Translations under genes and position numbers: made by a program
From: Amphiscolops sp. MND2022
Lineage: Eukaryota
Assembly: GCA_964187785.1 (NCBI GenBank)
Contig: OZ076409.1
Coordinates: 63,552,001-63,616,000, forward strand
Direction of reading: 5' to 3'
DNA length: 64,000 nt
Notes under the pieces: generated by a model
Seen by the model: the letters and a program-made list of their open reading frames with translations, nothing else
The model's database searches: none
What the model was told of the DNA's origin: nothing
In this document: one piece after another, positions 6,469 to 56,805 of the stretch
Position numbering within the stretch: position 1 is the stretch's first letter
Layout: every line of letters starts with the position of its first letter

Positions 6469-6861
6469 GGTGTCGGGTCACAAGTCCGAAAGAATGAAAT
6501 CAAATTTTTATCGTCCAATAAGATTTCAGAAATCCAGCGCAAGAAATACTTAGCACTGTATAATTCTCTGCAATCTGATTGGCTGACCGGAACGAAGTCC
6601 GTTCAAAGATTTTTAAAAATGAATTTTTCAATTTCATCTAGTCTGTCATTTTCACATACTCCTAGTGCCCTAAACGCAGGAGCGAAGCGAAGCGGAGCGA
6701 CGTGCCATATGGCCATGCCTCAATGTTGCTACTTGGCGAAGGGAGCGAAGCGACCGAGCCATGCAACAAATATGATAAGTACTTTTTCGGACTTGTGCAA
6801 CCCAAATTTATTTTTGGACTTGTGCAACCCAAATTTATTTTCGGACTTGTGAATAGCCGCC
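6469..6861. mobile_element. Non-autonomous TIR element (Mutator- or Merlin-like), 9-bp TSD, carrying the GCGAAGC core
   Basis: Perfect TSD tttggatac at 6460-6468 and 6862-6870; GG...CC termini; TIR motif TCACAAGTCCGAAA, tandemly repeated (27-bp unit) at the right end. Confidence 0.85.
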
Positions 6862-7245
6862 TTTGGATACACTCATAATTTATATTCTTGTTTGTTTTAT
6901 TGATTTGAAGTGCTGATGAAATCACACAAAAATTTCAGAGCGATCGCTAATTCGCTAATCAACGGTGTGCTAACATTGTTCTATCATGAAAAGAACTTTA
7001 GTTCAACACAAATTAAATTGGTTAAACAACAATAGACAATTCTGTTGCTTGAAAGGATCCTTCAATATTTACAGACAATCAGTTGAGTGATTTAAATCTT
7101 GCTAGTTTGTGGCAAACGATTTCAAAAATTACCTTCGAGGAAAGATGCATTAAAGTTTGGTCCAATCCATCTTAGGAGTCAAGAAAACTAATCACGCTAA
7201 ATTCAGAACTTTAAAGTCTATTTTAAGAGTTGTGTTATTAATTAA

Positions 7246-55000: not shown

Positions 55001-56805
55001 CCCTGGGCCACCCATGCCAGCTCCTGTGACACTTCCACAAGGAGGACTTCCGCCTCCATCCCTGAAACCAGCACGTGACGTCATTTGACTTGATCATAGT
55101 TGAAGGTTGCAGAGGTTCAATTTCAAATGGATTTCATTACAGAGCCAATTTGTAATCAGCAGTTTCTAGAGACAACAACCTTGTCAAAACATTCACACAG
55201 GAAATACCGGTAAAATGATGAATTAGACGAAGTAAGATGAAAGTGTAACACTACTTCTAGATAGAAGGATTACAATTGCTTTCTCCGATGATCGAGAGAT
55301 GTGAAGATTATATGATGAGAAAAGTAGAATCTCGCAACAAAAACCAACCTTTGGGAATACAATTGACTTGCAAATTCATTGTTCAGAGTATCACACAAAG
55401 TAGTACCTTAAACTTCCCACAATTTGGCTGGTCGAAGATGTACTAGAAGGGATCATAGCCGTGGCAGCTGGAGACGCGGCCGAGGACCCAGCACTGGACG
55501 CCACGGGTGACACGTTCACGAGAGTGCTGTTTGAACTACTAGAGGACAGGTTTGGGTTCGAACTCAGCCGATGCGCTTTCGAGTGTGAATTCACGTCCAA
55601 AAAGCCGCCTGTCTTGGATGAAGATAACGACTGTTGACCGCTTTTGTCTTTATCCGTCGATGAACTTATTCCTGGAATCAGAATTATAACGTCTGCATTT
55701 TAAAAATACACTGACTACCATTTTCTAATTCAAAAATTAGCAGAAAATATTACCATAACTTCATAACAAAAATATCAATTTTTCCAGACAGAAAATAATT
55801 CGAATTATATACTACAGAGATGTAGTAATTCCACACAGTAAATTTTCAGCTCTGGCACAATTGAGTGCCCATTATAGAGGTACAGCGATTGGAACTTATT
55901 TTGATCCCAGTTAGAAATCGTCTAGAGGATTTACACAGCTACAAGAGGCCCTTAAATCAACTATATTGTATATGGTGTCCGGACATTACGCCCAAACGTA
56001 AATTACGCAGAAGTAAATTACGATAATGTAATCAGCTATGCACACATACCCTTAGTGCCCTAAATGCAGGAGCGAAGCGAAGCGGAGCGACGTGCCATAT
56101 GGCCATGCCTCAATGTTGCTACTTGGCGAAGGGAGCGAAGCGACCGAGCCATACAACAAATATTTAAGCCTCTTCAAATAATAACCTGAAAAAAGTCGCT
56201 TTGAATAGCTTAATTTCCTTGGGCGTAATTTCCGTTTGGGCGTAATTTCCTTGGGCGTAATTTCCTTGGGCGTAATGTCTTTGGTCGTATTGTCTTAGAA
56301 CCATTGGATATCAGCATAGGGATTTTTGTCTTTGATTGTGAAAATGCTCATAATTGGTTGAAATTAGTCATCATAACTTTTTGTAAAAATTACTCGATTG
56401 CAAAACAAAAAAGACCAAGAGAGTCAAATTTAAATTATGTGGAAAATTTTTCAAAAATCAAAAACTCAGGTATTTTTGACATGAAAAAGAAAATTGTACT
56501 GAAAAAAGACACGACGCTCATTTTTGCGGGCTAGTTTATACGATTGAAAACACGGAAACGTCGAATGTTAGCCGAGTTTCAAAATATGAAAACATTTCAA
56601 ATCGCTTGCTGCAATCATCTTCAAACAATTTTCTGTAACAAGATATGATAGTTTCTGCAGACAAACCTGCACTATTTGTTCCGCTCGGGGTGCAAATGGG
56701 TGCGTTGTCTTTCGTCTTGTCATTCACTTGCGATGTGTTCTGTTGGTCCGAAGCCCCATCTTTACTCGAATATCCCCCTTTTTGATCACGCTCGAAATTT
56801 TGCAT
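19050..56805 (-). CDS. PRKD1: Protein kinase D family serine/threonine kinase; 22 predicted exons: 56805-56667, 55671-55407, 55061-54866, 53898-53760, 53451-53320, 52607-52456, 51955-51778, 50933-50781, 48322-48014, 47703-47626, 46771-46225, 45936-45901, 42732-42525, 42264-41911, 41412-41154, 38343-38126, 37294-37136, 34430-34170, 33226-33066, 20225-20119, 19941-19856, 19328-19050 (~1471 aa)
   Basis: Ubiquitin-like domain (ILLFKHD...DLIEVVLS); C1a ([43 protein letters not shown]); C1b ([20 protein letters not shown]); [13 protein letters not shown] plus PH domain ([26 protein letters not shown]); kinase ([66 protein letters not shown]). All introns GT-AG with consistent phases. Boundaries in low-complexity exons and paralogue identity are less certain. 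Confidence 0.93.
20827..21293 (-). mobile_element. Helentron-associated non-autonomous element (HINE/DINE-1-like), representative copy
   Basis: One end ACAAGACGAGAACGTCTAAAGTCGGCGC (stem-loop plus subTIR); the other end TAGTCGGGC...GCGCCGACTA (inverted repeat plus subTIR); inserted in A/T runs without TSD; internal repeats gtcgcacagtgccgaaaa and aagggggaccctttg. Confidence 0.75.
22591..23188 (-). mobile_element. HINE family copy (variant stem-loop GCCG-GGAA-CGGC; internal B-box-like segment)
   Basis: acaagccgggaacggcctaagtcggcgtc start; end aaacgtcgactaaaaa; gggactcgaaccc near 23033-23045. Confidence 0.7.
24873..31390. repeat. Intronic satellite array: ~184-bp monomers, ~367-bp dimers, ~35 monomers
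   Basis: ctactggaca recurs every ~184 bp and tcataaaagactactggacaac every ~367 bp; three monomer classes; degenerate toward both edges. Confidence 0.97.
33589..34116. mobile_element. Foldback-type TIR element (Merlin/Mutator-like) with 15-bp tandem repeats in both arms, 8-bp TSD
   Basis: Perfect TSD tctccagg at 33581-33588 and 34117-34124; GG...CC ends; (tcatttcaccccayr)n on the left and its inverse (gtggggtgaaatgaa)n on the right. Confidence 0.9.
35025..35462 (+). mobile_element. HINE family copy, opposite orientation, degenerate
   Basis: Starts ttagtcggcgc...gagcgacta; ends gcgctttttgggccttagatatagcacc. Confidence 0.6.
35721..35812 (+). mobile_element. Minimal non-autonomous Helitron-like element (92 bp)
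   Basis: A|TC start; hairpin GAGGCTT (35780-86) ... AAGCCTC (35798-804) followed by CTAG|T; these are canonical Helitron termini in an AT target. Confidence 0.5.
37448..37842. mobile_element. piggyBac-like MITE with damaged right end
   Basis: TTAA|CCCTCTTCTGCAT at the left; ATGCAGAAGAG at the right, where the terminal GG and TTAA are missing and the duplicated exon begins. Confidence 0.7.
37841..38054 (-). pseudogene. Partial duplicate of PRKD exon 17 plus adjacent intron (pseudo-exon)
   Basis: Copy of 37191-37447 with a ~43-bp deletion removing the splice acceptor and a CGA-to-TGA change (cgtctcg to catctcg). Confidence 0.9.
38936..41004 (-). mobile_element. HINE cluster: host copy 38936-40039 with nested copy 39372-39979, and a near-identical copy 40367-41004
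   Basis: Same termini as 20827-21293; the nested copy sits in an A-run of the host; 39372-39979 and ~40387-41004 align nearly throughout. Confidence 0.8.
43501..43562. repeat. 62-bp spacerless palindrome (1 mismatch)
   Basis: aacaaaccgaaaattgggtttgaattcattt|aaatgaattcaaacccaatttttggtttgtt. Confidence 0.9.
44564..44779. repeat. 216-bp spacerless palindrome (1 mismatch)
   Basis: Centre agtataa|ttatact at 44671/44672; 108-bp arms; only 44582/44761 is unpaired. Confidence 0.95.
45047..45518 (+). mobile_element. HINE family copy, opposite orientation, with duplicated subTIR end
   Basis: tagtcggcgc at 45047 and ~45103; ends gcgctgactttagacgttctcgtcttgttt. Confidence 0.75.
47055..47446. mobile_element. 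Degenerate foldback-type TIR element containing a 27-bp-stem hairpin (47300-47358)
   Basis: gcaatttcaacc-type repeats on the left and ggttgaaa.tg repeats on the right, ending gtcctgtaacc; internal tgactaattgatcttaaattgttataa-aatta-ttataacaatttaagatcaattagtca. Confidence 0.6.
48580..50080 (-). mobile_element. 5'-truncated, decayed non-LTR retrotransposon with restriction-like endonuclease (CRE-clade-like)
   Basis: Perfect 16-bp TSD atgtgatcaattcatt at 48564-48579 and 50081-50096; A-rich tail at the 48580 end; relic peptides [12 protein letters not shown] (post-RT) and [17 protein letters not shown]...[13 protein letters not shown] (Zn knuckle/RLE); several frameshifts. Confidence 0.85.
55974..56302. 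mobile_element. Non-autonomous TIR element, 9-bp TSD, 15-bp TIR repeats, carrying the GCGAAGC core
   Basis: TSD attgtatat (55965-55973) / attggatat (56303-56311); GG...CC ends; GACATTACGCCCAA on the left versus (ttgggcgtaatttcc)n on the right. Confidence 0.85.

What the first reader, a model, noticed from the sequence alone, without database searches (positions are those of the whole stretch)
6469..56302. MITEs with unrelated terminal repeats share a near-identical GCGAAGC-hairpin core: a hitch-hiking module or TIR-swapping system
Seen: the elements at 6469-6861 and 55974-56302 both have GG...CC ends and 9-bp TSDs, but their TIR/repeat units are unrelated (TCACAAGTCCGAAA versus GACATTACGCCCAA). 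Both nevertheless contain the same 121-bp core (6653-6773 versus 56043-56163; 4 differences by my count, all transitions). A third element with yet another TIR (16167-16435) carries the head cayatac...cctaaatgcaggagcgaagcg in reverse, and a fourth degenerate element (~38530-38840) has cacatac..tagtaccccaaatgcaggag. Known: d(GCGAAGC) is an exceptionally stable ssDNA mini-hairpin, and the core has several GCGAAG(C) units. Inference: the core is either a separate small mobile unit that targets these MITEs, or a cis-element kept while terminal repeats are exchanged between transposase subfamilies.
Basis: partly seen in the sequence, partly recalled or inferred. Interest (0 to 1): 0.75.

Follow-up and report, generated by a model that had tools for sequence, protein, structure and literature searches.

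The report
Folded DNA core shared by MITEs
Two small gene-less jumping DNAs with distantly related ends carry an almost identical 121-base middle whose two predicted hairpins match motifs found in viruses and plasmids, so the middle was likely copied recently between transposon families and may work as folded single-stranded DNA.

Summary
Confirmed: elements A (6469-6861) and B (55974-56302) have GG..CC ends and 9-bp TSDs, and share a core that is 117/121 identical. C and D share only its end boxes. Not confirmed: that the TIRs are unrelated. The left ends of A and B match 16/23 without gaps, which no unrelated GG site among 4585 reaches. I found two core-less elements of the same build (E, F). 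All look like Foldback-type Mutator MITEs (Muta1/Tm1-like; Merlin not excluded). The core holds two predicted hairpins with tandem G·A pairs and GNA loops. Both motifs recur in viral contigs with co-varying stems (84/107; 41/77). The A/B middle is identical over 87 bp, yet differs freely in C/D, and the spacers do not align. This points to recent copying between families rather than slow conservation. No free core copy lies in the window. The pattern is in print (coral CMITEs; exchange among maize Mutator clades), and this scan noted shared folded cores before in bacterial MITEs. No genome or reads were available, so everything rests on six copies. Verdict: new variant of a known kind.

The parts
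6469..6861 (+). Element A, 393 bp, GG..CC ends, perfect 9-bp TSD; one repeat word at the left end, three at the right (27-bp period)
6653..6773 (+). Core in A
6676..6705 (+). Predicted hairpin I in A (stem, tandem GA/GA, GC pair step, GAA/GGA internal loop, GC stem, GAA loop)
   Evidence: sequence; coordinates; motif co-variation in viral contigs
6704..6713 (.). Perfect 10-bp palindrome between the two hairpins
6734..6761 (+). Predicted hairpin II in A (two G·A-rich steps, GAA loop); identical in B
   Evidence: plasmid and viral matches
55974..56302 (+). Element B, 329 bp, GG..CC ends, 9-bp TSD with 1 mismatch, 15-bp subterminal repeats
56043..56163 (+). Core in B, 117/121 identical to A; hairpin I 56066-56095, hairpin II 56124-56151
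16167..16435 (-). Element C, 269 bp, 9-bp TSD with 1 mismatch; head box with short hairpin I (16323-16342), tail box 16235-16249, different middle
38530..38845 (+). Element D, decayed relative of C; head box with short hairpin I and a GGA loop (38641-38660); right end uncertain, no TSD found
15234..15456 (.). Element E, 223 bp, GG..CC ends, perfect 9-bp TSD, imperfect subterminal repeats, no core
33589..34116 (+). Element F, 528 bp, GG..CC ends, perfect 8-bp TSD, 15-16-bp subterminal repeats, left end 17/23 identical to B's, no core

Best explanation
A and B are non-coding elements with GG ends, 9-bp target duplications and homologous but diverged left ends, likely Foldback-type Mutator MITEs, whose shared 121-bp core was likely copied recently from one family into the other by recombination and is predicted to fold as single-stranded DNA. 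Step 1 (shown): ends, TSDs, repeats, core identity. Step 2 (inferred from Muta1): a terminal motif is cut and the subterminal repeats are bound by a family-specific transposase, so the repeats drift between families. Step 3 (inferred): the module is old, because C and D carry diverged head and tail boxes, and those boxes give homology handles through which gap repair or gene conversion copies the middle from one family to another. Step 4 (predicted, untested): the tandem G·A / GNA-loop hairpins form only on the purine-rich strand when the element is single-stranded, as in gap repair or lagging-strand copying, and are kept because they favour copying of the element (a priming or nuclease-resistant fold).
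For: Left ends of A and B 16/23 and of B and F 17/23, reached by no unrelated site among 4585. The build matches Tm1 (unequal outer motifs, variable 13-15-bp repeats, 9-bp TSD; PMC3169594, abstract and passages) and Muta1 (10-bp terminal motif plus repeats that bind transposase, 8-9-bp TSD; PMC5499845, passages). Recent copying: the central 87 bp are identical, all 4 differences lie in the end boxes (p about 0.03 for so long a run), the spacers do not align, and C/D show that the middle can vary. The 3.3% core difference is of the size of decay inside single copies (1 difference between A's repeat units; 1 of 9 in B's TSD). 4 of 4 core copies lie in these elements, which cover 3.2% of the window; an HMM finds no fifth copy (next E = 1.9). 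Fold: strict tandem-GA/GNA hairpins occur in A, B and C, reached by 16, 15 and 6 of 5000 shuffles of each core. The hairpin II motif co-varies in viral contigs: 84 of 107 distinct contexts complementary, 9 pair types, permutation mean 33.6, maximum 47. The hairpin I motif: outer closing pair 41 of 77 against mean 23.5, maximum 38. Exchange between Mutator clades is in print (PMC10401008, abstract and one Discussion section).
Against: Only one copy per family was seen, so 'family' and 'recent transfer between families' are inferred; no genome. Standard DNA folding gives the A and B cores no better energy than shuffles (z +1.2 to +2.6) and D +0.9; only C stands out (z -3.0). The hairpin rule was written after seeing the sequence; across the whole window 4 hits are not significant (6 of 60 shuffles reach 4), one hit lies outside any core, and D fails the strict rule. 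The viral contexts are not independent, 54 of the 84 complementary cases are one pair type, and the first scan covered 21 of 64 parts. Co-variation in viruses shows that the motif is a real fold there, not that it works here. Plasmid and phage matches have E 0.09-4. C's ends show no detectable kinship to A or B. Homology of A's spacer to E is marginal (42 of 1000) and of B's spacer to F absent (566 of 1000). No transposase of this kind was found in the window's ORFs that I scanned (7 of 27).
Confidence: 0.5

Rival explanations
1. The core is a separate, TSD-less miniature element (Crypton-like or moved by another single-strand enzyme) with conserved ends and a variable middle that inserts preferentially into these MITEs.
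For: Conserved head and tail boxes around a variable middle; sharp A/B boundaries without a TSD; core-less E and F exist; animal Cryptons have no terminal repeats and have non-autonomous derivatives (PMC3212892, passages). Unchecked notes of this scan describe such hairpin caps at Crypton ends (e1-9955466) and a recombinase element in this genome (e1-9528649); these are leads only.
Against: 0 free copies in 64 kb while 4 of 4 sit in MITEs; junction flanks share no target sequence across all four; likeness among B, C and D runs some 12 bases left of the A/B boundary, so the left 'end' is not the same in all copies; in B, C and D little but the core lies between the arms.
Confidence: 0.2
2. No exchange: the core is a cis-element inherited vertically and held near-constant by selection while the ends and spacers turn over fast, as proposed for coral CMITEs.
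For: A and B left ends are homologous and the core has the same orientation to that end in both; head and tail boxes persist in C and D; PMC2872659 proposes this role for its shared internal region (parts 1-3 of 4 read).
Against: The 87-bp middle is identical in A and B although C and D replace it, and the ends are about 30% diverged with unalignable spacers; selection strong enough for that should not tolerate the C/D middles.
Confidence: 0.15
3. An ordinary one-off chimaera: one repair event copied the middle of one MITE into another, and the hairpin motifs are relics with no role now.
For: Only single copies are seen; capture of foreign internal sequence is routine in MULEs (Pack-MULEs, Tm1-HH); standard folding shows no excess stability; E and F moved without the core.
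Against: The short hairpin I is kept in C and D across deep divergence, D with a different GNA loop; both hairpins match motifs with co-varying stems elsewhere.
Confidence: 0.15

Closest known systems
CMITEs of Acropora corals (PMC2872659; abstract, methods, results and discussion read)
   Same: MITE families with different TIRs share an internal region that is more conserved than the TIRs; only a short terminal motif is common; origin and role of the region unknown.
   Different: CMITEs are about 100 bp, piggyBac-type with TTAA TSDs; here 270-390 bp, GG ends, 9-bp TSDs, subterminal repeats, family-specific spacers, and a core with tandem G·A / GNA hairpin motifs.
Tm1 Mutator/Foldback elements of Meloidogyne (PMC3169594; abstract and passages)
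   Same: 9-bp TSD, unequal outer terminal motifs, TIRs of a variable number of short repeats, a class with a shared internal hairpin-bearing region (Tm1-HH) and classes without it.
   Different: Tm1 classes share one repeat unit; the shared motif is a histone RNA hairpin; terminal motifs differ in sequence.
Muta1 of Aedes aegypti (PMC5499845; passages)
   Same: About 10-bp terminal motif plus subterminal repeats, unequal repeat numbers in the non-autonomous derivative, 8-9-bp TSD.
   Different: Muta1's terminal motif is palindromic and the same at both ends; no shared internal module was described in the passages read.
Maize Mu elements with exchanged TIRs and interiors (PMC10401008; abstract and one Discussion section)
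   Same: Interiors and TIRs of divergent Mutator clades are recombined; conversion and nesting are proposed routes.
   Different: Long TIRs and coding interiors; here each element has matching repeats on both arms and a small non-coding module.
Merlin transposons (PMC8101967; passages)
   Same: 5'-GG ends, 8- or 9-bp TSDs, sometimes very imperfect TIRs and tandem repeats.
   Different: Cannot be separated from Mutator here without a transposase; the repeat-built arms with unequal outer motifs fit Tm1/Muta1 better.
Single-strand hairpins with sheared G·A pairs: Streptomyces telomeres, parvovirus ends (PMC4513846; passages), GCGAAGC mini-hairpins at phage G4 and ssiA priming sites (PMC13037366; passages)
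   Same: GNA loops on short GC stems with sheared G·A pairs; hairpin II matches 24 of 26 bases at 23-48 bp from the end of a linear Streptomyces plasmid.
   Different: Those replicons have a known single-stranded stage and a cognate primase or terminal protein; none is known or shown here. The likeness is most simply convergence.

Membership tests
Foldback-type MULE (Muta1/Tm1) | 8-10-bp TSD | tested here: met
   A, E perfect 9 bp; B, C 9 bp with 1 mismatch; F 8 bp; D none found
Foldback-type MULE (Muta1/Tm1) | Short terminal motif followed by subterminal tandem repeats in unequal numbers | tested here: met
   A 1 left, 3 right; B 15-bp repeats; F 11 left, 7 right
Foldback-type MULE (Muta1/Tm1) | Long TIRs (>100 bp, typical of MULEs) | tested here: inconclusive
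   Met by F's repeat arrays; A, B, C, E have much shorter inverted parts
Muta1 itself | Palindromic terminal motif, same at both ends | tested here: not met
   First 9 bases of the two ends match 4/9 in A, B, E and F
Foldback-type MULE (Muta1/Tm1) | Autonomous partner with MULE DDE transposase and the same ends | not testable with these tools
   No genome held; none among 7 window ORFs scanned
Merlin | 5'-GG termini with 8- or 9-bp TSD | tested here: met
Merlin | IS1595-type transposase with matching TIRs | not testable with these tools
   No genome held
CMITE | TTAA TSD and piggyBac terminal motif | tested here: not met
   9-bp variable TSDs, GG ends
CMITE | Internal region more conserved than TIRs | tested here: met
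   97% core against 70% left ends
CMITE | Homology to the published 60-bp internal consensus | not tested
   No alignment was run
Helitron (core as insert) | 5' TC and 3' CTRR ends between A and T (features recalled, from no call) | tested here: not met
   Core ends and junctions show neither on either strand
Crypton (core as insert) | No TSD at the ends | tested here: met
   No duplication at the core junctions; weak, since an inherited module also has none
Crypton (core as insert) | 4-6-bp terminal direct repeats (fungal groups; absent in animal groups) | tested here: inconclusive
   A 5-mer recurs near both core ends in B and C, but shared sequence runs past it
Crypton (core as insert) | Dispersed copies at unrelated sites and a recombinase-coding partner with the same ends | not testable with these tools
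   0 free copies in 64 kb; no genome
tRNA-derived SINE or known RNA family | tRNA-like head or Rfam match | tested here: not met
   0 Rfam matches at gathering score in the window, 0 at E up to 5 around B, 0 tRNA genes

The most novel reading that the evidence does not exclude
Animal cut-and-paste MITEs carry an exchangeable single-strand DNA signal: a module of sheared-G·A hairpins, of the kind that viruses and plasmids use at single-strand origins and telomeres, that moves between transposon families and gives its carrier a replicative boost. That would explain why some MITEs out-amplify their parents and imply a single-stranded step not described for Mutator-type elements.
Probability: 0.2. 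Interest if true: 0.75.

Novelty: new variant of a known kind. Interest (0 to 1): 0.45.

Why it matters
Why MITEs reach high copy numbers, and what their interiors do, is open; the CMITE paper left the shared interior unexplained. Here the shared interior has a readable, strand-specific signature that predicts folded single-stranded DNA and can be tested with oligonucleotides and with a yeast transposition assay. If the hairpins prove to be relics, this is a tidy but ordinary case of exchange among related MITEs.

Tried and rejected
Whole genome: none held. Sequencing runs: none was listed for window 6000-11600, so no reads were laid. Metagenome scan with the head-box pattern: 4 loci, all GC-rich bacterial-looking DNA with no likeness beyond the pattern, taken as chance. 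Viral scans with the head box and exact hairpin I: 0. Prokaryote genome scan with the head box: 0. Look-alikes of the core among this scan's notes: 0; notes near this place: 0. SINE or RNA family: rejected. Helitron: ends do not fit. My own idea that E is a core-less A and F a core-less B with homologous interiors looked good by eye but failed or was marginal against window-drawn nulls; only terminal kinship of B and F stands. Thermodynamic folding does not support extra stability; that the energy model lacks sheared tandem G·A terms is my own knowledge. The protein search showed an animal genome without a close named relative; the label 'acoel' comes only from an unchecked note. Literature: of 10 searches, those aimed at such hairpins in animal MITEs listed no paper that describes them, judged from titles and abstract starts; the library lacks most subscription papers and Repbase reports, so absence from print is not established. 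No supplementary files were read; the Tm1 and Crypton supplements hold terminal sequences that could bear on classification.
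Full report
Setting. The window is animal DNA of about 37% G+C with a spliced protein kinase gene and an acetyl-CoA transporter gene. The transporter's nearest named relatives are about 50% identical. 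An unchecked note on this genome calls it an acoel worm (e1-8647183); I did not test that. No assembly was held and no sequencing run was listed, so the analysis of the elements rests on this window.

The observation. The cores at 6653-6773 and 56043-56163 differ at 4 of 121 sites, all transitions. A has a perfect 9-bp TSD, B and C have one mismatch, and D has none that I could find. C and D carry the head box and the tail box around different middles, and they align to each other at 67% over 168 bp. A scan for GG..CC segments with 9-bp duplications gave 21 candidates; the four with the best inverted ends were A, B, C and a new element E at 15234-15456, while 10 shuffled windows gave 0 or 1 at that level. 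A wider scan added F at 33589-34116 with an 8-bp TSD. E and F have no core.

The ends are not unrelated. A-left and B-left match at 8 of 9 terminal bases and 16 of 23 without gaps; B-left and F-left match at 17 of 23. Among 4585 GG-starting 23-mers, the only ones that reach these scores are ends of these elements. The test must be anchored at the end: a free local alignment of the first 70 bases was not significant (89 of 500). The right ends of A and B match at chance level, as do C's ends against A or B. The spacers between arms and core do not align between A and B, and my by-eye matches of A to E and of B to F interiors were marginal or absent against nulls drawn from the window (42 and 566 of 1000).

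What kind of element. Unequal outer motifs of about 9 bases, arms made of a variable number of short repeats, and 8-9-bp TSDs match Tm1 of root-knot nematodes (PMC3169594, abstract and passages) and Muta1 of Aedes, where the repeats bind transposase and the terminal motif is needed for joining (PMC5499845, passages). Merlin also has GG ends and 8-9-bp TSDs (PMC8101967, passages) and cannot be excluded without a transposase. None turned up among the 7 of 27 long ORFs that I scanned.

How the core came to be shared. An HMM of the head box finds the four known copies and nothing else (next E = 1.9); all four lie in elements that together cover 3.2% of the window. There is no TSD or common target at the core junctions, and likeness among B, C and D extends a little left of the A/B boundary. 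The central 87 bp are identical in A and B, with all differences in the end boxes (p about 0.03). Since C and D show that the middle can be replaced, identity there is better read as recent common origin than as constraint. The 3.3% difference is of the order of decay seen within single copies. I infer recent copying between two diverged families, most simply by gap repair or gene conversion using the conserved boxes. Exchange of TIRs and interiors between Mutator clades is described in maize (PMC10401008, abstract and one Discussion section). MITE families with different TIRs and a more conserved interior are described in corals (PMC2872659, parts 1-3 of 4).

What the core is made of. GCGAAGC is enriched (10 against 3.8), but D lacks it and two of the three copies in A and B overlap. 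Standard DNA folding gives A, B and D no advantage over shuffles. Read with G·A steps allowed, the core holds two hairpins with GNA loops and tandem GA/GA mismatches. A strict version of this rule is met in A, B and C and by 16, 15 and 6 of 5000 shuffles of each core; it was written after seeing the sequence, D fails it, and window-wide the count of 4 is not significant (6 of 60 shuffles). C and D keep a short hairpin I, D with a GGA loop. GCGAAGC is a known mini-hairpin with a sheared G·A pair, found at phage and plasmid priming sites (PMC13037366, passages), and sheared G·A hairpins close Streptomyces telomere palindromes (PMC4513846, passages).

The motifs recur elsewhere. Hairpin II drew matches in 33 plasmid records at E up to 10; 19 of the 20 listed begin at core position 83, and 18 of 20 have no annotated feature under them. 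One lies 23-48 bp from the end of a linear Streptomyces plasmid, one in pRm1132f (that it is a rolling-circle plasmid is my recall), one 336 bp from a repA gene. These E-values (0.09-4) are not significant singly. An exact 18-mer of hairpin II occurs in 26 viral loci, of which 5 pairs are related. With stem positions left free, 84 of 107 distinct contexts are complementary, in 9 pair types, against a permutation mean of 33.6 and maximum of 47 (the scan stopped at 21 of 64 parts, and 54 of the 84 are one pair type). For the hairpin I pattern, the outer closing pair is complementary in 41 of 77 contexts (mean 23.5, maximum 38) and the inner pair in 65 of 77 (mean 55.5, maximum 63). The contexts are not phylogenetically independent. 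This shows that both motifs behave as real folds in viral DNA; it does not show a function in these MITEs.

Earlier notes of this scan. Shared folded cores in MITEs with different ends were noted in several bacterial genomes, a GNA-opposite-GNA junction in giant-virus elements, and tandem-GA hairpin caps at Crypton ends. My G·A reading came before these look-ups; the hairpin I test and the Crypton check were prompted by them. They are leads, not support.

Mechanism and odds. Most likely (0.5): related Foldback-type Mutator MITEs, an old module recently copied between families, its hairpins kept because they fold on one strand when the element is single-stranded and help its copying. Ends, TSDs and identity are shown; transfer is inferred; the fold is predicted; the benefit is untested. 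Rivals: a separate TSD-less element that targets these MITEs (0.2), vertical inheritance under strong selection (0.15), and a one-off chimaera with relic hairpins (0.15).

Verdict. The feature is real. The pattern is known from CMITEs and maize Mutator elements. What I did not find in print (listings only, limited library) is a shared core of sheared-G·A hairpin motifs in animal 9-bp-TSD MITEs. New variant of a known kind; interest 0.45.

Noticed in passing
   Followed up: partly
window 33589-34116: Element F: Foldback-type MITE with 15-16-bp repeats and an 8-bp TSD, between exons of the protein kinase gene and about 20 bp from one ORF end.
   Followed up: partly
window 6575-6601: A's left spacer holds a CCAAT-box-like word on the minus strand and a small hairpin with a GAA loop on the same strand as the core's loops; E has the same 7-mer loop word at 15355-15361.
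   Followed up: no
window 5945-6960: Element A sits in a stretch rich in TCGCTAA repeats with inverted arms at 5945-6044 and 6357-6380, probably another repeat-built element.
   Followed up: partly
window 58514-59416: ORF of 300 codons that looks like an internally deleted hAT transposase: weak zinc-finger and hAT dimerisation hits below the curated cut-offs.
   Followed up: partly
window 1587-1982: Minus-strand ORF that by eye resembles a PC4-like single-strand DNA-binding domain (recalled likeness); no Pfam hit at E 0.001.
   Followed up: partly
window 24880-31385: Satellite of about 367-bp period made of two diverged subunits of about 180 bp, some 17 copies.
   Followed up: no
window 8028-8419, 14018-14245, 20826-21298, 35151-35469, 38932-41035, 45042-45522, 60894-61637: An abundant dispersed repeat family with many diverged copies in both orientations.
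   Followed up: no
L035-L156, L157-L263: Tandem-GA/GNA-loop hairpin motifs are common in IMG/VR contigs (about 370 stored stretches estimated for one pattern) and often lie beside further hairpins of the same style.
   Followed up: partly
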